In this document: piece by piece, positions 542 through 60,860 of the stretch
Position numbering within the stretch: position 1 is the stretch's first letter
Layout of the letters: each line of letters begins with the position of its first letter
Source: a virus
Lineage: Duplodnaviria > Caudoviricetes
Strand: one strand, 5' to 3'
IMG/VR virus record: IMGVR_UViG_3300021959_007005
Length of the DNA stretch: 64,000 nt
The notes under the pieces: generated by a model
Databases searched by the model: none
What the model was told of the DNA's origin: nothing
What the model saw: only the letters and a program-made list of their open reading frames with translations
Position numbers and translations under genes: made by a program

Positions 542-946
542 CTACCAATCGTCATCCTTTGCGGCTTTTTTGGCTACTGGTTTAGATACTGCTTTAGCGG
601 TGTACGCCTGTGATCCATAAAATGCAGCAACAATAGCAGCAACTGATACAAAATACACACTCGCCATATCTCCTAAAATTTCACTTGCTTGCACTAAGTT
701 TAGTGCTACACCAATAACAACCGCAAATGGATACAACAACATTCCAGCTAGTGCAAACCATGCCATGTTACGCTGTGCATCTTGCTTTTTATCTTCATTC
801 TCCATTGTTACTTTACGAAATTCAAGTTCCATAATTGCCTCAGCCTGTGCCATTTCATCGTCTGTAATAATACCATCGCCATCAGCATCTAATTGGTTAT
901 ATTTAGATGATGATTCTAGTGTTTTAGCTTTTTTCGCTGCCGCCAT
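542..946 (-). CDS. Small membrane protein with EF-hand-like loop and two TM helices
   Basis: DADGDGIITDDE fits the 12-residue EF-hand loop (D1,D3,D5,G6,I8,E12); two hydrophobic segments (AWFALAGMLLYPFAVVIGVAL; YFVSVAAIVAAFYG). Confidence 0.65.
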   Translation of the reverse strand: MAAAKKAKTLESSSKYNQLDADGDGIITDDEMAQAEAIMELEFRKVTMENEDKKQDAQRNMAWFALAGMLLYPFAVVIGVALNLVQASEILGDMASVYFVSVAAIVAAFYGSQAYTAKAVSKPVAKKAAKDDDW

Positions 947-987
947 CGAGTTCTCCTTTGTCTTCTCTCAGGAGTATTTATTGCTAA

Positions 988-2124
988 TTACCAAAATTTA
1001 AGTTTCTTAGCTGCATGTTTTACTGCATTTTCTGCATCCCTTGCTGCTTTAGCTGCGGCATCTGCTTGTCTTTGAGCTTCTGCTGCAACACGTTTAGCTT
1101 CTTGTTCCGCCGCACGTTGTGCCGCAGCCGCTTGTTCTGCTGCCTGTTGAGCTGCAACCTGTGCTGCTTTCTGAGCAGCTCGGCGTTGAGATTCAGCCTC
1201 GGCTGCAACACGTTTTGCTTCTGCTTGTAATTCTCTATTATGACGTGCAAGAGCTTCAGCTGCTTCTCTAGCAGCCGCCTCGGCTTCTTTTTGTTGTTGC
1301 TTTATCATAGCAGCGGCACGATCTGCTTCTACTTGTGCGGCTTCCGCAGCCGCATCTGCTTGTTCTTTTGCTAATTTAGCAGTGTCATATGCTGCTTGAT
1401 GTGATGCTTCTGCAACTGCCTTTGAGGTTTGGGTGACTGCCTCTACTGCTGGTTTTGTATCCACACTAACACTAGCATCAATTTCAACACCTGCAAGTAA
1501 TTCAACTTCTCCACTAACACCGATAGTTGCAACACCATCTTCCATTGTTGCACCACCACCAACATCAGCACCTACTTGAGCACCAATACTTACACCAGCC
1601 CCAATGCTTCCGCCATTCCCTGCGTCATCATATGCACTAGTTGAGTTTTCAACCCCTACACCAACACCAGCATGAGCACCAGCCTCACCAGAAATACCAT
1701 CCATTCCAGCCTGTGCATGGGCACCTGCATCAGCTTCTGCAAAAGCGGTTGCTGATGACTCATTAGTAATAGTCACATCACCTACGTCTGCACTAGTACT
1801 TGTGCCAGCTTCAACACTGGCACCAGTTTCGGCACCAATATCAGCATATGCATTTCTATCATCTACACCAGCTTGTGCTTCTGCGGTTGCATGTACTTCT
1901 GCACCAACATGTGCTTCGTTTGTAATTTCAACATCACCAACAGTATCTGTTCTACTTGCACTTGCTCCAGTTTCGGCATGTGCTTCAGCAGTTGCCGCAA
2001 CACTTGAATCAGTTACTTCAGCACTTGCACTTGCTCCAGCTTCAGCATGTGCTTCTACATCAGCCCCTGCTACAAATGCCTCCGCTTTTTCCTGTTTACT
2101 CAACTCGACTTTATCTTCGCTCAT
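988..2124 (-). CDS. Hypothetical Ala/Gly-rich repeat protein with C-terminal Ala/Gln/Glu coiled coil
   Basis: 378-aa ORF, SD GGAG upstream; N-half has AEAHAE/AGA and VGDVxITNE repeats; C-half is a TolA-like helical AAEQAA tract ending KKLKFW. Confidence 0.75.
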   Translation of the reverse strand: MSEDKVELSKQEKAEAFVAGADVEAHAEAGASASAEVTDSSVAATAEAHAETGASASRTDTVGDVEITNEAHVGAEVHATAEAQAGVDDRNAYADIGAETGASVEAGTSTSADVGDVTITNESSATAFAEADAGAHAQAGMDGISGEAGAHAGVGVGVENSTSAYDDAGNGGSIGAGVSIGAQVGADVGGGATMEDGVATIGVSGEVELLAGVEIDASVSVDTKPAVEAVTQTSKAVAEASHQAAYDTAKLAKEQADAAAEAAQVEADRAAAMIKQQQKEAEAAAREAAEALARHNRELQAEAKRVAAEAESQRRAAQKAAQVAAQQAAEQAAAAQRAAEQEAKRVAAEAQRQADAAAKAARDAENAVKHAAKKLKFW

Positions 2125-2160
2125 AAATCTTCTCCTATAATAAGTTTATTATGTATGTAG

Positions 2161-2820
2161 TTATTTATTCATATCATTGAGAGGATTATCAAGTGCTTCG
2201 TCTATTCTTTCATTAACCTTGCTATCTAATTTACTCATTTCCTTATCAATACGTTCTTCGGTTTCACGCATATTATCCCTAACATCTTTTTCTGACTCTC
2301 TAACAGTATTTTCAATTTCACGTAGTGTTGCACTAGTCTCAACTCTAATGACATCCATTTGTGTTCTAATAATTTCTAATGTATTATTAATTTCTTGTTG
2401 TGTTGCTTTAAGTCTGGATTCACTTGCTTCTAATTGGTTCTCAATATTATCTTCTGTTTTCTTAACTCTCAATTCAGTACTATCAGTTGCCGCTTCTAGA
2501 CTTTGTATGTCAGCTTTAAGTTGGTTTCTAATATCTCTTGTATAGTCCAGAGCCTTAATTACTGAATCATCAATTGCAATTAACTTAGTTGCATTTGTTT
2601 GTTCAACTCTTTCTAATTGAGAATTTAACACACTTAGTTGCTCCTGCAATCCACTAAGATCTGGAGCAACATATTCTTGTATCTGTTCTTTCATATTTCT
2701 ATAATCGTTATAAAATTCAAACCCACCCCATGCAACTCCACCCAATGTGCTGAGTGCAGTTATAACAGCAAACATCTTGCCACCTGTAAATTTTACTCCA
2801 CCTACTTCTACTTCGGCCAT
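2161..2820 (-). CDS. Hypothetical N-terminally anchored coiled-coil protein
   Basis: Hydrophobic N-terminal segment (MFAVITALSTLGGVAWGGFEFY) followed by about 170 aa of heptad-like sequence. Confidence 0.75.
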   Translation of the reverse strand: MAEVEVGGVKFTGGKMFAVITALSTLGGVAWGGFEFYNDYRNMKEQIQEYVAPDLSGLQEQLSVLNSQLERVEQTNATKLIAIDDSVIKALDYTRDIRNQLKADIQSLEAATDSTELRVKKTEDNIENQLEASESRLKATQQEINNTLEIIRTQMDVIRVETSATLREIENTVRESEKDVRDNMRETEERIDKEMSKLDSKVNERIDEALDNPLNDMNK

Positions 2821-2822
2821 AT

Positions 2823-3143
2823 TTAATCTCCTATTGGTATTTCTAATCCAAAAACAATTCCTACTTGTCTGCCATTTTCAATCCCAGGCATAACAAACCA
2901 ATTGTCTTTCTTCCATCTTATCATTGGCGTAATTTTGTAATCAGTATAGCCAGTAATCATTCCTACTTCTATATTTTCAAAAATATTTACCCCAGTGTAT
3001 ATACTTACTTTATTTTCGCTGTTTAAAAACACTCCAGCAAATATTTGTTCTTGTGTACATCTAAAATTTGGATGTATTTGGTTATAATCATATTCAAACC
3101 CCACATGCATACTCAATCCTAAACTAATTAGACATTCAATCAT
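2823..3143 (-). CDS. Hypothetical small protein, predicted beta-strand rich (possible small outer-membrane barrel)
   Basis: Alternating aromatic/hydrophobic strands (EVGMITGY, PMIRW, WFVMPG, GIVFGLEI); tightly coupled to neighbours. Confidence 0.6.
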   Translation of the reverse strand: MIECLISLGLSMHVGFEYDYNQIHPNFRCTQEQIFAGVFLNSENKVSIYTGVNIFENIEVGMITGYTDYKITPMIRWKKDNWFVMPGIENGRQVGIVFGLEIPIGD

Positions 3144-5976
3144 TGTATTGTTCCCTTACCATTTTTTTATGTAGTTCATCACTTGCACCATTAAAAAATC
3201 TAGCACTAGGGTTATCCCAAACCTTCTGGTCAGTGTATATCCCTTCAGAACTATACCAATCGTTATTAGTTGGCATTTGCGGCTGTATGTATTGACGGAA
3301 GCTAGGATTGTACCCTAGTAGTGCTGCCTGTGCATCTTCACTGTCATCACCTGCTAGTGCTTTTTCAACTAGATCGTCTTCTAGTTGCTGTTGTTCTAAC
3401 AAATCTTCTGGACTAACTTCGTCTAACGGTTCTCCCATTTCATTTGCTTCTTCTAATGCTCGCTTTGTCATATCAATTATAAATGCGTTTATTTCTGCTG
3501 CAATTATACTTGATATCTCCGCTGCTACAGTTGCATCTATATTGCCGCCAAAGGAATATGTTGACTCCTGAGTTTGTCCGTAATCAGCTGCGCCTGTAAC
3601 ATCTACTGTAGAAACCCCTGTGCCTGCAAGCATTTCTGTAGATGTTCCAGAATTGAGAGCAGCGATGCCGCTGTCTCCCTGTTGTAGTGTTGTTTGTCCT
3701 GTGCTAAAGTTTTGCATAGAACTATTACTACCTGTTGTGAATGATGTTTGTGATCCTGTTGACCCTCCTTCGCTTGTTGACCCTCCTCCGTTATTGTTAG
3801 CAAAGTCGCTACTACTTTGTCCTGTATCTTGTCCTGTATCTTGACTAGCGCCACTATTGTTAGCACTTGAACCTGCATTTCCTGTATTACTATTTTCAGT
3901 ACTTCCAGTATTCTGTGCTGTACTATTTGCACTGTTGCCTGCACTATATCCACCTGTGCTAGATTGTGTACTCTGTTGTGCTTGTGTTGACGCCACTTGT
4001 TCTGCTGCTTTAGTTGTGGTACTTGCAATATTAAGTGCTCTAGTTTTTACACTTGATCGTTTTGCAACAGTTGCAATTGGAGATTCTACTGTTTCTTCTT
4101 CAATTACTTCTTCTTCAATTACTTCTTCTGTAATTTCCTCAATAGTTTCTTCTACTAATTCTTCTTCAATAACTTCTTCTATAGTTTCTTCAACTGTAGC
4201 TTCTGTTTCCTCTACAATTGGCTCTTCTACAATTGACTCTTCAAACGCTTCAACTGTCTCTGTAAACGTTTCTACTTCAGTAAATTCTTCTACAGGATCT
4301 GTAAATATTTCTACAGGCTCTGTAAATTCTTCTTGCGTGTCAACTACACCTGTTGACTGTTCTACGTCAACACCCGTTGACTGTTCTACATCAACACCTG
4401 TAGTTGCTTGTACATCTTCGCCTGTGCTTATATCAACAATAGGATCTTCGTATGTTTCTTCTGGAACAGGCGGCTCACTAAAATCTTGTTGTCCTGTTTG
4501 TTCTTCAATGTCAATACCAGTAGTTGCTTCTAGGTCAACACCGGTGGCTGCTTCAACATCAATACCTGTTGTGTTTTGAATGTCTACTCCTGAATTAGTA
4601 TCTACCATTCCGGTGCTTTGATCTACTGGATCGCTTGTCCCTGTAAATGTTTCTGGTTCAGGGTTTCCTGCATCTGACCCGTCATCCTGTCCGTCACTAG
4701 ACTGTGTACTTGGATCATCATAAGTCTCAGGAGTTGGTTCAATATATCCTGGACACATATTACTACTCTGTGCATCCATTCTACATTGTTCATCAAACTG
4801 TTGCTGTTGATATGCATCATCATAACCGTCACAACTTGAGTCATACAACGGATCTGCTGAACACTGTTGTTGTGTGTATGCTTGTTGATATCCAGCACAC
4901 GATTCGTCATACAATGGATCGTTTGCACACTGTTGATCAGTATATGCTTGTTGATATCCGCTACAACTTGAATCGTATAACGGATCTTGTGAACACTGCT
5001 GATCAGTATATGCCTGTTCATAGCCACTGCAACTTGAATCATACAATGGATCGTTTGCACACTGTTGGTTTGTGTATGCTTGTTCATAACCACTGCAACT
5101 CGAATCGTAAAGAGGATCGTTCGAACATTGTTGGTCAGTATATGCTTGTTGATAGCCCGGACATTGATCTGAACTTAACGGGTCTGAATTACAAGCTGCC
5201 GCAAAGTCATCAGCTGCACCGTAATCGTAGTTAGGATCAAATGGATCTGCTCCTTCTCTGATTGCATATGCGAATGTCATTTTCATTCCACGCACACCAC
5301 TGCCTTCGCCGTTGCCTTCCATAGTCATTTCTACATACCAGTCATCTTCCACTGTAAAAAATCCTGGTGGAGGATGATCTACATCAAAGCCTGTCCAGTC
5401 TGCAAAAGATTGATTAGCATAGCTGTATTCAGAACTATATATTAATCCGTCTTCCCAATCGCCTTCATGTGTTTGACCTGTGGTGCCATTATTACTAGGA
5501 CCCCAAATTTTAACAGTAAGTATTAAGTTACTACTAGCATCAGGTTTCTTAACTTCCCATTCGTAACCAAAGCCTCTAAATTGTGTTGTAAGGCCAGCTT
5601 GCTGTAGTGCTTCATTAATAGCAAATGTAGATTTAATAATTTTATTACTAAGAGTGTCTGCGGAAAATGTATAGGAACCGTCTGTTGAAGAATATACTGC
5701 TACAGGATTACCATCTGAGTCGTAGCTCATAGTTTCATCAACGATATAACCTACGTTGCCATTCATGTCAAGTGTTGTACACTCTAATGTATCGCTTTCT
5801 GTGTTTTGGTATTTTCTGCCGTCGCGGTTTGATATCATTGCTGAGCCGCTGCCTGTGCCTGTGTAAGTTGTTACAGCACAGTTAGATGCTGGTGTAGGAT
5901 CTGCTAGGCTTTCGTTAGAGTAAAAGAAGAAGCAAGATGCCAGCGCCAGCGCCTTTAAGCATGTTGTTAGTTGCAC
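3136..5976 (-). CDS. Large secreted acidic protein with 22-aa Cys repeats and low-complexity linkers
   Basis: 946 aa, GTG start, signal-peptide-like N-terminus, tandem AYTxQQCxxDPLYDSSCxGY repeats, Glu-rich and Ser/Gly/Thr/Gln-rich tracts. Confidence 0.8.
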   Translation of the reverse strand: MQLTTCLKALALASCFFFYSNESLADPTPASNCAVTTYTGTGSGSAMISNRDGRKYQNTESDTLECTTLDMNGNVGYIVDETMSYDSDGNPVAVYSSTDGSYTFSADTLSNKIIKSTFAINEALQQAGLTTQFRGFGYEWEVKKPDASSNLILTVKIWGPSNNGTTGQTHEGDWEDGLIYSSEYSYANQSFADWTGFDVDHPPPGFFTVEDDWYVEMTMEGNGEGSGVRGMKMTFAYAIREGADPFDPNYDYGAADDFAAACNSDPLSSDQCPGYQQAYTDQQCSNDPLYDSSCSGYEQAYTNQQCANDPLYDSSCSGYEQAYTDQQCSQDPLYDSSCSGYQQAYTDQQCANDPLYDESCAGYQQAYTQQQCSADPLYDSSCDGYDDAYQQQQFDEQCRMDAQSSNMCPGYIEPTPETYDDPSTQSSDGQDDGSDAGNPEPETFTGTSDPVDQSTGMVDTNSGVDIQNTTGIDVEAATGVDLEATTGIDIEEQTGQQDFSEPPVPEETYEDPIVDISTGEDVQATTGVDVEQSTGVDVEQSTGVVDTQEEFTEPVEIFTDPVEEFTEVETFTETVEAFEESIVEEPIVEETEATVEETIEEVIEEELVEETIEEITEEVIEEEVIEEETVESPIATVAKRSSVKTRALNIASTTTKAAEQVASTQAQQSTQSSTGGYSAGNSANSTAQNTGSTENSNTGNAGSSANNSGASQDTGQDTGQSSSDFANNNGGGSTSEGGSTGSQTSFTTGSNSSMQNFSTGQTTLQQGDSGIAALNSGTSTEMLAGTGVSTVDVTGAADYGQTQESTYSFGGNIDATVAAEISSIIAAEINAFIIDMTKRALEEANEMGEPLDEVSPEDLLEQQQLEDDLVEKALAGDDSEDAQAALLGYNPSFRQYIQPQMPTNNDWYSSEGIYTDQKVWDNPSARFFNGASDELHKKMVREQYND
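4744..5193 (-). repeat. In-frame 66-bp tandem repeat (5 full + 2 degenerate copies) encoding C-x9-C units
   Basis: Protein units such as AYTDQQCSNDPLYDSSCSGYEQ repeated with synonymous divergence. Confidence 0.9.
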
Positions 5977-7147
5977 GTTCTTTGTCCTCTTCAGTCTGCA
6001 CTGCTACAGGTTGTTTTTCTGGATTAGCTGCCCATTTGTCTTTTGCTTCTTGACCTATTGAGCCATCGAATGGGCAAGGTGTTCCTGCCATTTCCATTGA
6101 ACGATAAACCCGTTCGTCTTGACAGAGTAAGCTAACTGCCGCGACCTTCATGCCCATGTTATATAATGTCTTAGAAAGTTTTAAAGCTTCACAGTTCATA
6201 TCTCTTACATGTGTTCCGCCTGCAATACCTACAATTTGTGTTTGCACTGCACCACTAATACTAGTTGTACAAGTGTCATTGCCGCCAGCATTTACTGTAG
6301 GAGCAATAGCACTCGGGGGAGGAGCTTCTATCTTTTGTGTAATAGTGCTGTTGTTATTGTTATTGTTTGTATTAGTGTTGTCACTAGTACTGTCAACAGT
6401 AGTTTCATTTGTATTGTTATTTGTATTGTTGTTTGTATTGGTGTTGGTATTTGTGTTAGTATTGTTATTCGTGTTTGTATTATTACTAGTACTATTAACA
6501 GTTTGGTCTACAGTACTATTATTAGTGCTGTTTACAGTTTGATTAACAGTGCTTGTATTCGTGTTGGTATTATTGTTAGTGTTCGTATTGTTCGTACCAC
6601 CACTTATAACATTGTTATTAGTATTAGTTGCTGTACTATTAACAGTTGTATTGTTGGTATTGTTGTTTGTATTGGTATTCGTGCTTGTGTTCGTATTAGT
6701 ATTGTTCGTGCCACCGCTTAAAACATTATTATTAGTGTTCGTATTTGTATTATTGGTACCACCGCTTAAAACATTATTATTAGTGTTCGTATTTGTATTA
6801 GTACCAGTATACGTTGTGGTGTTGTTGTTGGTATTTGTGTTGGTGTTGTTATTCGTATTTGTATTAGTACCAGTATACGTTGTGGTGTTGTTGTTTGTAT
6901 TCGTATTGGTATTTGTATTATTATTAGTATTTGTGTTAGTTGTTCCACCACTCATAACTGTATTGTTATTATTTGTATTAGTATTTGTACTATTCACAGT
7001 GCTAGTGCTAGTAGTTGTACTATCAGTTTCTACGTAACTTGTATCATCAAAGTTACCATCAGCATCGTTTGCCACTTGTGCTGATACACTCGATGCTATC
7101 ATCCACAGTAACGCCGCTAAGATGGTGGTCTTTAAAAAAAACTTCAT
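5915..7147 (-). CDS. Secreted Asn/Thr-rich repeat protein with Cys-containing C-terminal domain and hydrophobic C-tail
   Basis: Probable start at the ATG at 7147 (MKFFLKTTILAALLWMIASSVSAQ, signal peptide; GGGG upstream); about 210 aa of TNTNTNNN repeats; C-domain with four Cys; ends GAGILLLLLL. Confidence 0.8.
   Translation of the reverse strand: MKFFLKTTILAALLWMIASSVSAQVANDADGNFDDTSYVETDSTTTSTSTVNSTNTNTNNNNTVMSGGTTNTNTNNNTNTNTNTNNNTTTYTGTNTNTNNNTNTNTNNNTTTYTGTNTNTNTNNNVLSGGTNNTNTNTNNNVLSGGTNNTNTNTSTNTNTNNNTNNTTVNSTATNTNNNVISGGTNNTNTNNNTNTNTSTVNQTVNSTNNSTVDQTVNSTSNNTNTNNNTNTNTNTNTNNNTNNNTNETTVDSTSDNTNTNNNNNNSTITQKIEAPPPSAIAPTVNAGGNDTCTTSISGAVQTQIVGIAGGTHVRDMNCEALKLSKTLYNMGMKVAAVSLLCQDERVYRSMEMAGTPCPFDGSIGQEAKDKWAANPEKQPVAVQTEEDKERATNNMLKGAGAGILLLLLL
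6345..7000 (-). repeat. Low-complexity Asn/Thr coding repeat with internal duplicated blocks
   Basis: Repeated TTTYTGTNTNTN (x2) and NNVLSGGTNNTNTN (x2, plus a VISGG variant) units. Confidence 0.9.
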
Positions 7148-7190: not shown

Positions 7191-7198
7191 GTATTTAT
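7191..7198 (-). promoter_or_regulatory. Putative T4-like late promoter (ATAAATAC) for the minus-strand secreted-protein operon
   Basis: Same TAAATA core precedes many late-type genes in the window (e.g. 25681, 27244, 29606, 30084, 41099). Confidence 0.5.
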
Positions 7199-7248: not shown

Positions 7249-7491
7249 ATGAAATCACAACAAATGGAAGAACAAGATACATTTTTTGAATTGTTTGAGA
7301 CTTGGACAGAAGCATTACCTGTACCAGAAGAATATTGTTTAGACAATGATGTTGATGATTTTATTATTGATAAAATAAAAGATGCATTATTGGAGCATAA
7401 TGGAAATCAAACAAAAGCAAGCAAGTGCTTGGGTATTAAGCGTACTACACTAATTGCTAAGTGTAAAAAATTAAATATTTTTAGCCTTTAA
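7249..7491 (+). CDS. Fis-family (HTH_8) helix-turn-helix protein
   Basis: IKDALLEHNGNQTKASKCLGIKRTTLIAKCKKLNI matches the Fis/NtrC C-terminal HTH pattern (AL..GN.t.AA..LGi.R.TL..K.k). Confidence 0.8.
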   Translation: MKSQQMEEQDTFFELFETWTEALPVPEEYCLDNDVDDFIIDKIKDALLEHNGNQTKASKCLGIKRTTLIAKCKKLNIFSL

Positions 7492-7652: not shown

Positions 7653-8135
7653 TTACCATTTCCCTGTTCCCATACCTATTAACCAAAAAATAACAGCTAA
7701 TACGCCTGCGCCTACTGCTGCTATAGATCCTCCGACTATCCATTCAAGAATCATTTGTTTGCGTTCTTCAGCTGCATAAACTTCTGCTGCACGTTTCTTG
7801 CGCATTTGACCTTCCATGCGTACAATTTCATCCCAAGCACTCGGGCCGTAATAAAAGCTGATGTGCGTTTTCATTTCTTCACGCATTTCTTTTGCTTTTT
7901 GTTTATGTCCCCAAATTTCTAGAGCATTTTGCTCTATTTGACTTGCACCAAACAGTTTTTTGAACATTGGTGGATTTTGTGCTTGTTTGTGTGAAAAGTC
8001 TAAATCACTCATAGCAGTTGACCACTGAGAAAGTGTGCCTGCCATATCGTGCAGTTCTTTTCCTGTGTCTATTGCTGACTTAATTCCGCGATATGCGGCG
8101 GCCGCCATGCCAATGGCGCTTACTGGATCTATCAT
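7653..8135 (-). CDS. Hypothetical protein with C-terminal TM helix
   Basis: 160 aa, SD GGAG; C-terminal hydrophobic segment; ATAAATAG box at 8187-8194 upstream. Confidence 0.75.
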   Translation of the reverse strand: MIDPVSAIGMAAAAYRGIKSAIDTGKELHDMAGTLSQWSTAMSDLDFSHKQAQNPPMFKKLFGASQIEQNALEIWGHKQKAKEMREEMKTHISFYYGPSAWDEIVRMEGQMRKKRAAEVYAAEERKQMILEWIVGGSIAAVGAGVLAVIFWLIGMGTGKW

Positions 8136-8216
8136 GTGTTAGATCGAACTCCTCTGTTTAAAACTTATTACTCTGTACTCTCATTACTATTTATTCATTT
8201 TATTGTAAAAAAGTAC

Positions 8217-21125: not shown

Positions 21126-21587
21126 ATGGGAGCAAAATTAGCAGGTGTTATGTTTATAATACTGATTGCCGCAAGTGGTGTCGGTTACTGGTACTATAAT
21201 GACACCCAGCAACGTATTGCAATCTTAAATGAAAATAATGCTAAACTAAACGTAGCAATAAATTTAAATGAAGAAACTATAACTTCTTTGGAATCAGATT
21301 ACAGAAGAGTTAATGAAGAACTAACAACTATTAATCAACAATTTGCTAATGTTCGGAAACAAAATAATAGATTAAATGAAAAACTTGCAACGATTGATCT
21401 TGGACTAGCGGCAGTTAATAATCCCGATGGGATTGGCAGAGCAGTCAATAGAGGTACAGAAAATGCAGGAAGATGTTTCGAATTATTAAGTGGTGCTGAT
21501 TTAAATGAAAAGGAAAAGGGAGCCACCAATGGCATACAATTTAACAAAGAGTGTCCTTGGCTTTGGCCTGGTAATGACACTCCTTAG
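21126..21587 (+). CDS. Inner-membrane spanin (Rz-like)
   Basis: N-terminal TM, long coiled coil, two C-terminal Cys; overlaps a downstream lipoprotein gene. Confidence 0.75.
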   Translation: MGAKLAGVMFIILIAASGVGYWYYNDTQQRIAILNENNAKLNVAINLNEETITSLESDYRRVNEELTTINQQFANVRKQNNRLNEKLATIDLGLAAVNNPDGIGRAVNRGTENAGRCFELLSGADLNEKEKGATNGIQFNKECPWLWPGNDTP

Positions 21588-21918
21588 TGGGTGCAGTAGT
21601 TTACCAAGCACCTTAAATGTATCAACAAAACCAGTTACAAAGCCAATATTGGTATTGCCTGATGTTGACGAAGTATCAATGCGCCGCATTGAATGGATTG
21701 TTATTAATGAAGAAAATGTAGATGATGAGTTAGCTAAACTTAAAGAAAAAAACATTCCAACTGGTTTGTATGCATTAACTGGTCAAGGTTATGAAAATTT
21801 AGGTCTGAACTTTAGTGACATACGTGCTCTAGTACAACAACAGCAAGCAATTATTGTAGCATATAAAAATTATTATATTGAAGCAGAAGAAACTCTAGAC
21901 AACTCAGTAGCAAAGTAA
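21529..21918 (+). CDS. Outer-membrane spanin lipoprotein (Rz1-like)
   Basis: Probable start MAYNLTKSVLGFGLVMTLLSGC (lipobox LSGC); Pro-rich N-region; overlaps the i-spanin 3' end. Confidence 0.75.
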   Translation: MAYNLTKSVLGFGLVMTLLSGCSSLPSTLNVSTKPVTKPILVLPDVDEVSMRRIEWIVINEENVDDELAKLKEKNIPTGLYALTGQGYENLGLNFSDIRALVQQQQAIIVAYKNYYIEAEETLDNSVAK

Positions 21919-59654: not shown

Positions 59655-60860
59655 ATGGCAAACTTAGTAGTAATAGGAACCCAATGGGGCGATGAAGGCA
59701 AAGGCAAAGTAGTTGATTTACTAGCAGAACAAGCAGATGTTATAGTACGTTTTCAAGGAGGACATAACGCAGGGCATACACTGGTAATAGGTGACAAAGT
59801 TTTTAAACTTAGCTTACTGCCCAGCGGTATAGTAAGAGAAGATAAAGTTTCGGTTATTGGTAACGGTGTTGTATTGAATCCTTGGAAACTATTAGAAGAG
59901 ATTGAACTAGTACAGTCACAAGGTGTAAACATTGATCCTAGTAGATTGATGATTGCAGAAAACACTCCGCTAATTTTACCCTATCACCAAGCATTAGATC
60001 AGTCAAGAGAAGAAGTAACTGATAAAAAAATCGGTACTACTGGCAGAGGCATTGGTCCTGCATATGAAGATAAAGCAGGAAGACGTGCAATTAAAGTAGG
60101 AGATCTTAGAGATGATGAACTACTCAAACATAGACTAGCAATAGCCGCAGAGTATCACGACTTTGACCAACAACAGTTGTTTAATCAGCTAGCACATATC
60201 AAAAAACATGTATTACAATATGTAAATGATGTACCACTTTATCTAAATCAAAAGACTGACTTAGGATTTAATATATTATTCGAAGGCGCACAAGGAAGCA
60301 TGCTAGATGTAGACTTTGGCACTTATCCTTATGTAACAAGCTCAAACACACTAGCAGGTATGGCTAGTATAGGCTCAGGGGTACCGCATAATAAGATACC
60401 AAATGTAATTGGTATAACAAAAGCATACACAACTCGAGTTGGCGAAGGGCCAATGACGACTGAATTATTTGATGATGTTGGAGAGCATCTAGCAAGTGTA
60501 GGTAAAGAAAAAGGTACAGTAACTGGTAGAAGCAGACGCTGTGGATGGTTTGATGTATCACAAGTAAAACGAACATGTATGTTAAATGGTGTTACTGGCA
60601 TAGCATTAATGAAAATAGACGTACTCGATAAACTCGAGACTATTAAGATTTGTACTGACGTACACAACGGAATACCAGTGTATGAAGAGCTACCTGGTTG
60701 GTGTACTAGTACAATAGGTATAACTGATTATTCAGATTTACCAAGACTTGCTCAAGAGTATATTAACCGTATTGAGCAATTAACACAAACCGAAGTAGTT
60801 TTGATATCAACTGGACCAGAAAGAGATCAAACTATTTTATTACAAGATTCTTTCTTTTAG
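59655..60860 (+). CDS. purA: Adenylosuccinate synthetase
   Basis: QWGDEGKGK, RFQGGHNAGHT, IGTTGRGIGPAY.DK, FEGAQG..LD.DFGTYPYVTSS, GTVTGRSRRCGWFD. Confidence 0.95.
   Translation: MANLVVIGTQWGDEGKGKVVDLLAEQADVIVRFQGGHNAGHTLVIGDKVFKLSLLPSGIVREDKVSVIGNGVVLNPWKLLEEIELVQSQGVNIDPSRLMIAENTPLILPYHQALDQSREEVTDKKIGTTGRGIGPAYEDKAGRRAIKVGDLRDDELLKHRLAIAAEYHDFDQQQLFNQLAHIKKHVLQYVNDVPLYLNQKTDLGFNILFEGAQGSMLDVDFGTYPYVTSSNTLAGMASIGSGVPHNKIPNVIGITKAYTTRVGEGPMTTELFDDVGEHLASVGKEKGTVTGRSRRCGWFDVSQVKRTCMLNGVTGIALMKIDVLDKLETIKICTDVHNGIPVYEELPGWCTSTIGITDYSDLPRLAQEYINRIEQLTQTEVVLISTGPERDQTILLQDSFF

What the first reader, a model, noticed from the sequence alone, without database searches (positions are those of the whole stretch)
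542..7147. Six-gene late operon of secreted and membrane proteins that looks like an envelope-spanning module
Seen: six co-oriented, closely spaced genes behind one ATAAATAC box. They encode (i) a signal-peptide Asn/Thr-repeat protein with a 4-Cys domain and hydrophobic C-tail, (ii) a 946-aa secreted Cys-repeat/acidic protein, (iii) a small beta-strand-rich protein, (iv) a membrane-anchored coiled coil, (v) an Ala/Gly-repeat plus TolA-like helix protein, and (vi) an EF-hand two-TM protein. None has a recognisable virion or enzyme motif. Inference: the parts list (inner-membrane anchors, a periplasm-spanning coil, a small barrel, large exported low-complexity subunits, a Ca2+ loop) resembles an export-and-display system such as curli/Fap amyloid or adhesin machineries. 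It could remodel the infected-cell surface (superinfection exclusion, grazer avoidance, aggregation). I know of no described function for such a phage operon.
Basis: partly seen in the sequence, partly recalled or inferred. Interest (0 to 1): 0.78.

Follow-up and report, generated by a model that had tools for sequence, protein, structure and literature searches.

The report
Conserved phage envelope triad near lysis genes
Three of the six genes form an undescribed, very widespread marine-phage module of two inner-membrane-anchored proteins and a secreted lectin-like rod. It sits next to lysis genes in several phage lineages and may be the missing outer-envelope lysis device of "spanin-less" ocean phages, although this phage also has ordinary spanins.

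Summary
The six minus-strand genes are real and have the described features, but they are not one conserved operon. Four ATAAATA late-type boxes split the region into g0 | g1-g2-g3-g4 | g5 | g6.

Only g1 (signal peptide, spacer, 4-Cys helical domain, C-terminal hydrophobic tail), g2 (secreted; FBA/CBM-like beta-sandwich, Cys repeats, acidic stalk, conserved C-terminus) and g4 (N-terminal TM, variable coiled coil, C-terminal NPL motif) travel together. Of 52 independent g1-seeded viral loci, 51 carry g4 downstream. The g1 and g2 genes overlap by 46-85 nt in nearly all loci.

The triad occurs in myo-, podo- and siphoviruses of SAR11 and Roseobacter. It was never found in an isolate bacterial genome, and no database names it.

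Every endolysin or holin I could identify in the fetched loci lies within one gene of the triad. Two complete pelagiphage genomes have no lipoprotein gene, and their g4 homologue is the only i-spanin-like protein. However, this window and a complete 195-kb relative also carry canonical Rz/Rz1-type spanins.

Best reading (about 0.4): a lysis-associated, periplasm-spanning complex of new architecture. The curli/Fap-like export reading is not supported. First readers flagged the same module in other genomes of this scan.

The parts
5915..7147 (-). g1: core gene 1. Signal peptide, Asn/Thr spacer, conserved 4-Cys helical domain (residues about 285-375), and a Gly-rich/LLLLLL C-terminal hydrophobic tail.
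   Evidence: alignment A1; 25 invariant columns, including D37, C39, N64, C65, E66 and the GMKVA block; at least 7961 clusters at 90% identity; 1952 clusters at 50% identity; a C-terminal tail in 103 of 106 homologues. Only phrog_20531 (unknown function) matches.
3136..5976 (-). g2: core gene 2. Secreted 946-aa protein with an N-terminal FBA/CBM-like beta-sandwich, six Cys repeats, an acidic Glu/Thr stalk, a Ser/Thr/Gly region and a conserved C-terminal stretch of about 100 aa ending MVxxQY. Its GTG start lies 62 nt inside g1.
   Evidence: Profile A5 hits the FBXO6/FBXO2/FBXO44 sugar-binding domain (E 3.6e-5, motif G.D..FWAGYYGP). AF2 model pLDDT 70. VIA-align Z 9.2 to Fbs1, 9.5 to SGBP-B and 9.1 to CBM16.
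2823..3143 (-). g3: optional insert. A small beta-rich 106-aa protein, translationally coupled to g2 and g4.
   Evidence: homologues only in L009-L013 and L023; L148. No family hit. The Atlas feature search gives only a weak lead to Phage_OMP/PagP-like clusters (score 0.90).
2161..2820 (-). g4: core gene 3. Conserved N-terminus (MAEVE.GG.KFTGGK), a Gly-rich TM segment, the motif YVAPDLS, a coiled coil of variable length and a conserved C-terminal ALDNPL motif.
   Evidence: 55 IMG/VR loci; alignment A2; at least 2447 clusters. Only sub-threshold coiled-coil Pfam hits.
988..2124 (-). g5: neighbour, not part of the conserved module. Ala/Gly-repeat N-half and an Ala/Glu/Gln-rich helix. No signal peptide or TM segment. 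It has its own ATAAATAA box.
   Evidence: No homologue in the syntenic loci. A 60%-identical homologue in G002 lies about 12 kb from that genome's triad.
542..946 (-). g6: frequent accessory gene. Predicted cytoplasmic EF-hand loop followed by two TM segments, with N-in/C-in topology by charge. Holin-like in architecture. It has its own ATAAATAC box.
   Evidence: Phage_holin_3_6, E 1.8e-5, 25.2 bits against a cut-off of 28.4, in this member only; EF-hand hits in 4 of 11 members. (A7: the loop residues D20, D24, G25 and E31 are invariant). (inside or beside the triad in many loci, including CRP-207 next to a lysozyme gene).
7653..8135 (-). g0: accessory tail-anchored protein of 160 aa with a C-terminal TM segment, ending GKW.
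   Evidence: phrog_32327, unknown function; in 17 of 52 loci, usually directly after g4.
7191..7198 (-). ATAAATAC late-promoter-like box, 43 nt upstream of the g1 ATG. This favours ATG 7147 over GTG 7186 as the start.
974..981 (-). Second ATAAATAC box, upstream of g6. A related ATAAATAA box at 2161-2168 precedes g5.
21126..21918 (+). Not part of the module, but bears on it: a canonical overlapped two-component spanin. The i-spanin is at 21126-21587. The o-spanin lipoprotein is at 21529-21918, with lipobox LLSGC.
   Evidence: phrog_739/214/13/89 'Rz-like spanin', E 2.7e-7; phrog_812, E 2.8e-5. A 46%-identical i-spanin is present in the complete 195-kb relative G003.

Best explanation
The conserved unit is a three-protein periplasmic complex made late in infection.

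Anatomy:
- g4 sits in the inner membrane by its N-terminal helix and projects a coiled coil of variable length that ends in a conserved NPL peptide.
- g1 is exported and held in the inner membrane by its C-terminal tail. It carries a disulfide-type 4-Cys helical domain and a long flexible spacer that ends in a conserved N-terminal peptide. In some lineages that N-terminus is instead a lipoprotein anchor.
- g2 is a secreted, very acidic rod with a glycan-binding-type beta-sandwich head in most lineages and a conserved C-terminal docking region.

Proposed mechanism: the three proteins bridge the inner membrane to the wall or outer side of the envelope. They act at, or tune, the last step of lysis, which is disruption of what remains after holin and endolysin. 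They would be a spanin-like device built without an Rz1-type lipoprotein. In small pelagiphages they may be the only such device. In this jumbo-type phage they would work beside the ordinary Rz/Rz1-like spanins. g6 (EF-hand, 2 TM) and g0 (tail-anchored) would be holin-like or regulatory partners.

Shown: gene linkage and order, sequence-predicted targeting signals, domain homology and fold, and neighbourhood.

Inferred: complex formation, topology, glycan binding and any role in lysis.
For: Linkage and coupling:
- 45 of 55 g4-seeded loci also carry g1.
- 51 of 52 g1-seeded loci with enough flank carry g4, and 44 carry the g2 C-domain.
- The g1/g2 overlap of 46-85 nt is conserved, and g2/g4 often overlap by 12-15 nt.

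Targeting signals:
- Signal peptides on g1 and g2.
- A C-terminal tail in 103 of 106 g1 homologues.
- An N-terminal TM segment in g4.
- A lipobox N-terminus plus C-terminal TM segment in the L009-type g1, which is the topology of a unimolecular spanin.

Spacers:
- The termini are conserved while the spacers vary in length.
- Protein lengths co-vary across 75 distinct triads (g1~g2 rho 0.64, g1~g4 rho 0.35).
- The g2 stalk is Pro/Glu-rich and TonB-like in L100.

g2 head: it matches the FBA lectin domain and has a CBM-type fold.

Lysis neighbourhood. Every endolysin or holin I could identify in the fetched loci lies within one gene of the triad:
- L052: GTA_holin_3TM, triad, M15.
- L042 and L048: the triad, then in L048 a GTA_holin_3TM gene and in L042 an unmatched 125-aa ORF followed by an M15 peptidase.
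- L096 and L100: endolysin upstream.
- L104: holin downstream.
- HTVC023P: triad followed by the gp49 M15 peptidase.
- CRP-207: a lysozyme gene between g2 and g6.
- Mosig: holin-like gene upstream.

Complete HTVC023P and HTVC202P genomes: no plausible lipoprotein ORF in any frame, and the g4 homologue is the only protein with an N-terminal TM segment and nothing else.

Literature:
- Kongari et al. 2018 (PMC6139136, section 15) leave open exactly such non-canonical topologies for the 13% of phages without spanins.
- A recent preprint shows that lysis cassettes can hold further envelope-targeting factors such as LysZ (10.1101/2025.06.24.661397).
Against: - The window itself (21126-21918) and the complete 195-kb relative G003 carry canonical Rz/Rz1-type spanins. 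The triad is therefore not needed as the spanin here.
- In the g1-seeded sample only 3 of 52 loci show an endolysin or holin nearby. My detectors covered only the M15, GTA-holin and one lysozyme family. In HTVC202P the triad is 20 kb from the M15 peptidase. The association is conditional, not general.
- From the periplasm a lectin head can reach peptidoglycan but not LPS, so a link to the outer membrane is unexplained.
- The window's own g2 has lost the WAGYYGP motif, and short g2 forms lack the head altogether.
- The g1 domain model is poor (pLDDT 59) and has no structural match.
- No experimental data exist for any member.
Confidence: 0.4

Rival explanations
1. Superinfection exclusion or receptor masking, the nearest testable form of the first reader's surface-remodelling idea. 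The membrane-tethered complex with its glycan-binding head would coat the wall or periplasm, or be released at lysis. It would then block incoming phages or keep progeny from sticking to debris.
For: - All products are envelope proteins.
- The g2 head has the same fold class as carbohydrate-binding modules of phage tail fibres and tailspikes (Kp7 gp52 Z 9.2, CBA120 TSP4 Z 8.9).
- The middle of g2 is hypervariable between relatives.
- The module persists in phages that already have spanins.
- From general knowledge: known exclusion and receptor-blocking proteins (T4 Imm and Sp, T5 Llp) are small envelope proteins.
Against: - The boxes are late-promoter-type, whereas T4 imm/sp and T5 llp are expressed early (general knowledge).
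- Three tightly coupled subunits with conserved termini and spacers of variable length suggest a distance-spanning machine rather than a blocker.
- Immediate adjacency to holin and endolysin in several lineages is not explained.
- No route across the outer membrane is encoded.
Confidence: 0.2
2. Lysis-timing or envelope-integrity control rather than disruption. The inner-membrane-to-wall tether, with g6 and g0, would sense or stabilise the envelope and so delay or sharpen holin triggering. This would be analogous in role to T4 RI/RIII lysis inhibition.
For: - It co-occurs with canonical spanins.
- Its partners have holin-like architecture: g6 with 2 TM segments and a conserved, predicted cytoplasmic EF-hand loop that could respond to Ca2+ influx, and the tail-anchored g0.
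- The TM segment and N-terminus of g4 are unusually conserved and Gly-rich, as expected for specific intramembrane contacts.
- A wall-binding-type head is present on g2.
Against: - g6 and g0 are present in only 19% and 33% of loci, so the triad must work without them.
- There is no homology to RI, RIII or T (PF11031 not found, though that control did not ring anywhere).
- The holin assignment of g6 is sub-threshold and limited to one member.
Confidence: 0.15
3. A curli/Fap-like or adhesin-type export-and-display system that puts g1 or g2 on the cell surface.
For: - The subunits are exported and of low complexity (Asn/Thr-rich g1, acidic g2).
- g3 is a possible small barrel (weak Atlas lead).
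- Pelagiphages and Melnitz are reported to carry real curli (T8SS) operons elsewhere in their genomes (PMC9599517, PMC9004378).
Against: - No CsgG/CsgF/CsgE, FapF, usher, secretin or autotransporter family is found in the six proteins, in 20 g2 homologues or in 141 neighbouring ORFs.
- g3 is absent from most loci.
- The conserved proteins carry inner-membrane anchors, not outer-membrane ones.
- There are no Curlin repeats.
Confidence: 0.04
4. Virion or assembly components, such as tail, baseplate or decoration proteins.
For: - Late-type promoters.
- In HTVC023P the triad lies among structural genes.
- The g2 head has a CBM-like fold also seen in tail fibres.
Against: - Cleavable signal peptides and membrane anchors on all core proteins.
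- No structural PHROG or Pfam hit.
- The same module occurs in myo-, podo- and siphoviruses with unrelated tails.
Confidence: 0.03

Closest known systems
Two-component spanins (lambda Rz/Rz1, T4 PseT.3/PseT.2)
   Same: - g4 has the i-spanin layout: an N-terminal TM segment, a periplasmic coiled coil and a conserved distal end.
- The genes overlap, as in 'overlapped' spanins.
- Cys residues suggest periplasmic disulfides.
- The module lies next to holin and endolysin in several lineages.
   Different: - No lipoprotein partner follows or is embedded in g4.
- There are three subunits, one of them a large secreted lectin-like rod.
- No sequence similarity to any spanin PHROG.
- It coexists with a true Rz/Rz1-like pair in this window.
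Unimolecular spanin (T1 gp11)
   Same: g1 has an N-terminal export signal and a C-terminal TM segment. In the L009-type loci, and possibly in CRP-207, the N-terminus is a lipobox, giving the exact gp11 topology.
   Different: - Most g1 proteins, including the window's, have a signal-peptidase-I type signal and no lipid anchor (1 lipobox-like sequence among 106).
- g1 never occurs without g2 and g4.
- There is no sequence similarity.
FBA sugar-binding domain of F-box proteins Fbs1/Fbs2 (FBXO2/FBXO6), within the galactose-binding-like/CBM beta-sandwich class
   Same: The g2 family profile matches the C-terminal strands, including G-x-D-x-x-F-W-A-G-W-Y-G-P (E 3.6e-5). The AF2 model superposes on Fbs1 (Z 9.2, 143 residues, rmsd 3.3).
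   Different: - No single member reaches Pfam FBA.
- The window's copy lacks the WAGYYGP motif.
- The context is a secreted phage protein, not a cytosolic ubiquitin ligase.
- The ligand is unknown.
TonB/TolA-type periplasm-spanning anchors
   Same: An N-terminal TM anchor with conserved residues, a rigid spacer of variable length and a small conserved distal element. Some g2 stalks are Pro/Glu-rich, and one homologue was annotated 'tonB' by its depositor.
   Different: No TonB_C or TolA domain, no ExbBD/TolQR partners, and no sequence similarity.
LysZ of corynephages and mycobacteriophages (preprint 10.1101/2025.06.24.661397)
   Same: A precedent that lysis cassettes encode an extra membrane factor directed at an envelope glycopolymer, beyond holin, endolysin and the outer-membrane disruptor.
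   Different: Unrelated hosts and proteins. This is an analogy of concept only.

Membership tests
Two-component spanin (i-spanin + o-spanin) | The i-spanin is a type II inner-membrane protein: a single N-terminal TM segment and a mostly helical, coiled-coil periplasmic domain. | tested here: met
   g4 has one N-terminal hydrophobic segment and the rest is hydrophilic with sub-threshold coiled-coil hits. Topology was not tested experimentally.
Two-component spanin (i-spanin + o-spanin) | The o-spanin is a small outer-membrane lipoprotein (lipobox plus Cys) encoded within, overlapping or just after the i-spanin gene. | tested here: not met
   An all-frame lipobox scan of the window finds no candidate in or near g4. 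The only good one is at 21529-21918. None is present in the complete HTVC023P or HTVC202P genomes.
Two-component spanin (i-spanin + o-spanin) | Sequence membership in a known spanin family (PHROG Rz-like families, TIGR03495). | tested here: not met
   No spanin PHROG or NCBIfam hit for g1, g2 or g4. The control pair at 21126-21918 does hit.
Two-component spanin (i-spanin + o-spanin) | Function: required for outer-membrane disruption, with a spherical-cell lysis defect when absent. | not testable with these tools
   This needs genetics, for example complementation of a lambda Rz/Rz1 amber lysogen or deletion in a cultivable roseophage.
Unimolecular spanin (T1 gp11 type) | An N-terminal outer-membrane lipoprotein signal and a C-terminal TM segment in one protein. 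| tested here: not met
   The window's g1 has a C-terminal tail but a signal-peptidase-I type signal with no Cys. Only 1 of 106 homologues is lipobox-like. The feature is met in the L009-L012 lineage (LTLAAC...).
Holin (for g6) | A small membrane protein with at least one TM segment and a charged C-terminus, encoded beside an endolysin, or membership of a holin family. | tested here: inconclusive
   g6 has 2 TM segments and a Lys-rich C-terminus. Phage_holin_3_6 scores 25.2 bits against a cut-off of 28.4, in 1 of 11 members only. It lies next to a lysozyme gene in CRP-207.
Curli (T8SS) / Fap amyloid secretion | An outer-membrane channel (CsgG or FapF), accessory CsgE/CsgF, and repeat amyloid subunits (Curlin_rpt). 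| tested here: not met
   No such Pfam family is found in the six proteins, in 20 g2 homologues or in 141 neighbouring ORFs.
FBA / galactose-binding-like lectin domain (g2 N-terminus) | A beta-sandwich fold with the conserved C-terminal G-x-D-x-x-F-W-A-G-W-Y-G-P strand pair. | tested here: met
   Met for the family profile (E 3.6e-5) and for the fold (Z 8.9-9.2). The motif is degenerate in the window's own copy. Sugar binding was not tested.

The most novel reading that the evidence does not exclude
The g1-g2-g4 triad is a previously unrecognised class of phage envelope machine. It would be a non-lipoprotein, three-subunit, periplasm-spanning device with a lectin-type head that carries out, or is required for, the final envelope-disruption step. 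It would do this in the ocean's most abundant 'spanin-less' phages (HTVC023P-type pelagiphages and relatives) and would have been exchanged as a cassette between myo-, podo- and siphoviruses.
Probability: 0.3. Interest if true: 0.85.

Novelty: new variant of a known kind. Interest (0 to 1): 0.68.

Why it matters
About 13% of phages of Gram-negative hosts have no recognisable spanin, and how they breach the outer membrane is an open question (Kongari et al. 2018, PMC6139136). Many marine phages are in this group.

This module is a concrete, testable candidate:
- It is strictly viral.
- It is very diverse: 1952 clusters at 50% identity for g1 alone, and at least 592 IMG/VR loci.
- It is present in cultured phages of SAR11 and Roseobacter, including the HTVC023P type. 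[quoted passage not shown]
- It is entirely unannotated.

If it acts in lysis, it bears on how the most abundant marine bacteria are killed and how their contents are released. If it does something else, it is still a cross-family cassette of unknown function. It also places an F-box-type lectin domain in a secreted phage protein.

Tried and rejected
- Complex prediction of the g1 domain, the g4 C-terminus and the g2 C-terminus gave no verdict (score 0.00, partner poorly folded). It counts neither for nor against binding.
- AF2 of the g1 4-Cys domain gave a weak model (pLDDT 59). It had no PDB match at E <= 0.001, no hit to PDB sequences with the profile, and only its own viral clusters in the Atlas.
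- Pfam, PHROGs and NCBIfam on all six proteins and on homologue sets gave nothing above threshold for g1-g5.
- Atlas feature searches of g4, g6 and g3 returned only unnamed viral clusters, plus a weak Phage_OMP/PagP lead for g3 that Pfam did not confirm.
- Megablast of the region against cultured phages found no match. tblastn with g2 found no match.
- The search for related loci with g3 found nothing.
- A search for the T4 holin T family in relatives found nothing, but the control did not ring either, so it is uninformative.
- The family PF28217, which the database attaches to many g4 homologues, is not in the local library, so its name is unknown.
- Literature searches found no paper that describes the module.
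- The idea that the triad simply replaces spanins was dropped as the sole reading after canonical spanins turned up in the window and in G003.
- 'Lysozyme' HMM hits fell on the g4 ORF itself and were discarded as spurious.
- The whole genome of the window is not held.
Full report
**What is there**

The window belongs to a large marine phage.
- It encodes a gp44-type clamp loader (1-540), a ClpA/B-like ATPase, a family-B DNA polymerase and PhoH.
- Its close relatives lie on contigs of 300-352 kb.
- No cultured phage matches at the DNA level.

The six minus-strand ORFs exist as described.
- g1 (7147-5915, 410 aa): signal-peptide-like N-terminus, an Asn/Thr spacer of about 240 aa, a 4-Cys domain and a Gly-rich/LLLLLL tail.
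- g2 (5976-3136, 946 aa): signal-peptide-like N-terminus, six C-x9-C-x-GY-x3-Y repeats, a Glu/Thr stalk and a net charge near -146.
- g3 (106 aa): beta-rich.
- g4 (219 aa): N-terminal TM segment followed by a coiled coil.
- g5 (378 aa): Ala-rich, with no export signal.
- g6 (134 aa): a canonical EF-hand loop followed by two TM segments.

The region is not one transcription unit behind one box.
- Four ATAAATA motifs lie on this strand: before g0 (8187-8194), g1 (7191-7198), g5 (2161-2168) and g6 (974-981).
- Only g1-g2-g3-g4 are coupled, with spacers of -62, -8 and +2 nt.
- The exact 8-mer is not enriched (8 found, 6.1 expected). All eight copies are co-oriented with the genes, and the four + strand copies printed lie about 25-95 nt before a start codon.

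**What is conserved**

- A scan of IMG/VR with g4 found 55 loci.
- tblastn of the window's proteins on these loci showed the order g1 C-domain, g2-like, optional inserts, g4 in 45 of them. Most of the loci without g1 are short or cut near g4.
- The reciprocal scan with the g1 domain found at least 592 loci. Of the 52 fetched loci with at least 4 kb downstream of g1, 51 carry g4 on the same strand, 44 carry the g2 C-terminal domain and 38 carry the g2 N-terminal domain.
- g1 and g2 overlap by 46-85 nt in nearly every lineage, and g2 and g4 often overlap by 12-15 nt.
- g0 follows g4 in a third of loci. g6 and a staphylococcal-nuclease homologue each occur in about a fifth. g3 is rare.
- g5 is not part of the module. 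Its only homologue lies 12 kb from the triad in G002.

The triad is present in four cultured phages:
- pelagiphage HTVC023P, a podovirus (gp45-48);
- pelagiphage HTVC202P, a siphovirus (gp24-26);
- pelagiphage Mosig, a myovirus (00202-00200);
- pelagiphage HTVC115P.

Roseophage CRP-207 carries g1, a g2-like gene and g6.

The g1 domain family has 1952 clusters at 50% identity. It carries no Pfam family or name. It was found only in viral records, MAGs and single-cell genomes, never in an isolate genome.

**Anatomy of the core proteins**

g1 homologues:
- 84 of 106 show a signal-peptide-like N-terminus by the hydropathy test, usually of the signal-peptidase-I type.
- They often carry a conserved mature N-terminus (A-D/E-P-I-V-T-D/E-S-T-S).
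- They have a Ser/Thr/Asn spacer of 30-250 aa.
- They have an invariant-rich 4-Cys domain, consensus NSD.C..G.SGAVQTQ.LG.S.G...D.NCE.LK.S..LY.MGMKVAAVS.LC.D.RV..AM..AGTPCP..G.IG..A...W.
- 103 of 106 carry a C-terminal hydrophobic tail.
- In the L009-L012 lineage the signal is a lipobox (LTLAAC), which gives the topology of a unimolecular spanin.

g4 homologues keep the N-terminus with its Gly-rich TM segment and the C-terminal ALDNPL motif. The coiled coil between them varies, for total lengths of 115-278 aa.

g2 homologues keep a C-terminal region of about 100 aa ending M-V-x-x-Q-Y/W. Most also keep an N-terminal beta-sandwich.
- A profile of that domain matches the sugar-binding FBA domain of FBXO6, FBXO2 and FBXO44 through the G.D..FWAGYYGP strands (E 3.6e-5).
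- The AF2 model (pLDDT 70) superposes on Fbs1/Fbs2, SGBP-B, CBM16 and the CBM-like domains of phage fibres (Z about 9).
- The window's own copy has the fold but has lost the motif.
- Short g2 forms lack the head.

Total lengths of the three proteins co-vary across 75 distinct triads (g1~g2 rho 0.64, g1~g4 rho 0.35). This was not corrected for relatedness.

**Neighbourhood**

Pfam names few of the neighbouring ORFs, and holin and endolysin families recur among those it names. Every such gene that I could recognise lies within one gene of the triad:
- L052: GTA_holin_3TM, a 45-aa ORF, the triad, then an M15 peptidase.
- L042 and L048: in L048 the triad is followed by a GTA_holin_3TM gene. In L042 it is followed by an unmatched 125-aa ORF and then an M15 peptidase.
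- L096: an M15 peptidase directly upstream of g1.
- L100: a two-domain GH19-like plus M15 endolysin, a signal-peptide nuclease, then the triad.
- L104: a holin directly after g4.
- HTVC023P: the triad followed by the gp49 M15 peptidase.
- CRP-207: a lysozyme gene between g2 and g6.
- Mosig: a GTA-holin-like gene upstream.

The association is conditional.
- Only 3 of the 52 g1-seeded loci show such a gene with my limited detectors.
- In HTVC202P the triad sits just before the terminase gene, 20 kb from the M15 peptidase.

**For and against a spanin-like role**

For:
- All-frame scans of the complete HTVC023P and HTVC202P genomes find no plausible lipoprotein.
- In both genomes the g4 homologue is the only protein with an N-terminal TM segment and nothing else.
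- Kongari et al. (PMC6139136, section 15) report no spanin in 91 of 677 phages. They state that type I proteins with a C-terminal TM segment and non-lipoprotein outer partners were not considered.

Against:
- The window carries a canonical overlapped pair: an i-spanin at 21126-21587 and a lipoprotein o-spanin at 21529-21918. Both hit Rz-like PHROGs.
- The complete 195-kb relative G003 has both the triad and a 46%-identical i-spanin.

The triad therefore cannot be just 'the spanin' in these large phages.

**Reading**

I commit to a lysis-associated, periplasm-spanning complex of new architecture. It either performs the last envelope-disruption step in small phages that lack Rz/Rz1, or assists or tunes that step beside ordinary spanins (confidence about 0.4).

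Rivals:
- Superinfection exclusion or receptor masking: 0.2.
- Lysis-timing or envelope-integrity control, with g6 and g0 as partners: 0.15.
- Curli/Fap-like export: 0.04. No channel, usher or amyloid family is found anywhere. True curli operons are reported elsewhere in pelagiphage genomes (PMC9599517, PMC9004378).
- Virion components: 0.03.

The complex prediction gave no verdict.

**Earlier findings of this scan**

First readers flagged look-alike four- and five-gene envelope modules in other genomes. These were unchecked notes that describe the same parts. My synteny tests confirm that the module recurs.

**Novelty and score**

No paper or database entry describes the module. I file it as a new variant of a known kind (spanin-like lysis-cassette envelope proteins). 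There is a 0.3 chance that it is a truly new class of lysis machine for spanin-less marine phages. Interest is 0.68.

Noticed in passing
window 21126-21918 (+): A canonical overlapped two-component spanin. The i-spanin is 153 aa (N-terminal TM segment, coiled coil, 2 Cys). The o-spanin is a lipoprotein (lipobox LLSGC, Pro-rich after the Cys). It lies between virion-protein genes and a DnaJ-like gene, far from any recognisable endolysin.
   Followed up: yes
window 7249-7491 (+): An 80-aa Fis-type HTH_8 protein transcribed divergently from g1. The same arrangement recurs in L001, L002, L005, L006 and L071, so it may regulate the module.
   Followed up: partly
window 59655-60860 (+): An adenylosuccinate-synthetase homologue (phrog_1211, E 4e-120). 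I did not test whether it is a PurA-type auxiliary gene or a PurZ of the 2-aminoadenine (Z-base) pathway.
   Followed up: no
window 542-946 (-) and alignment A7: The g6 family keeps a canonical EF-hand loop (DxDxDGxIxxxE), predicted cytoplasmic, in front of two TM segments. I know of no description of a Ca2+-loop membrane protein of holin-like size.
   Followed up: partly
L071 (349.5-kb ENA contig), L121 (352 kb), L152 (335 kb, binned as a Neomarinimicrobiota MAG): Close relatives of the window's module sit on jumbo-phage-sized contigs. L071 also carries GroEL, HSP20, ClpS, heme oxygenase, bilin reductase and SHMT genes. The MAG assignment is probably a binning artefact.
   Followed up: partly
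L100 4213-5762: A two-domain endolysin (GH19-like plus M15 peptidase) is followed by a staphylococcal-nuclease homologue with a signal peptide, then the triad. SNase homologues, most without a signal peptide, accompany the triad in about a fifth of loci.
   Followed up: partly
L058 (roseophage CRP-207) 6457-6672 (-): An unannotated ORF with a good lipobox (LLLAGC) overlaps the annotated start of the g1 homologue gp75 in another frame. It may reflect a frameshift or mis-called start, so that CRP-207's g1 could be a lipoprotein.
   Followed up: no
window 988-2124 (-): g5 has an Ala/Gly-repeat N-half and a 41%-Ala helical C-third ending KFW. It has no export signal and no family. One 60%-identical homologue lies elsewhere in G002. 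Its function is unknown and it appears unrelated to the module.
   Followed up: partly
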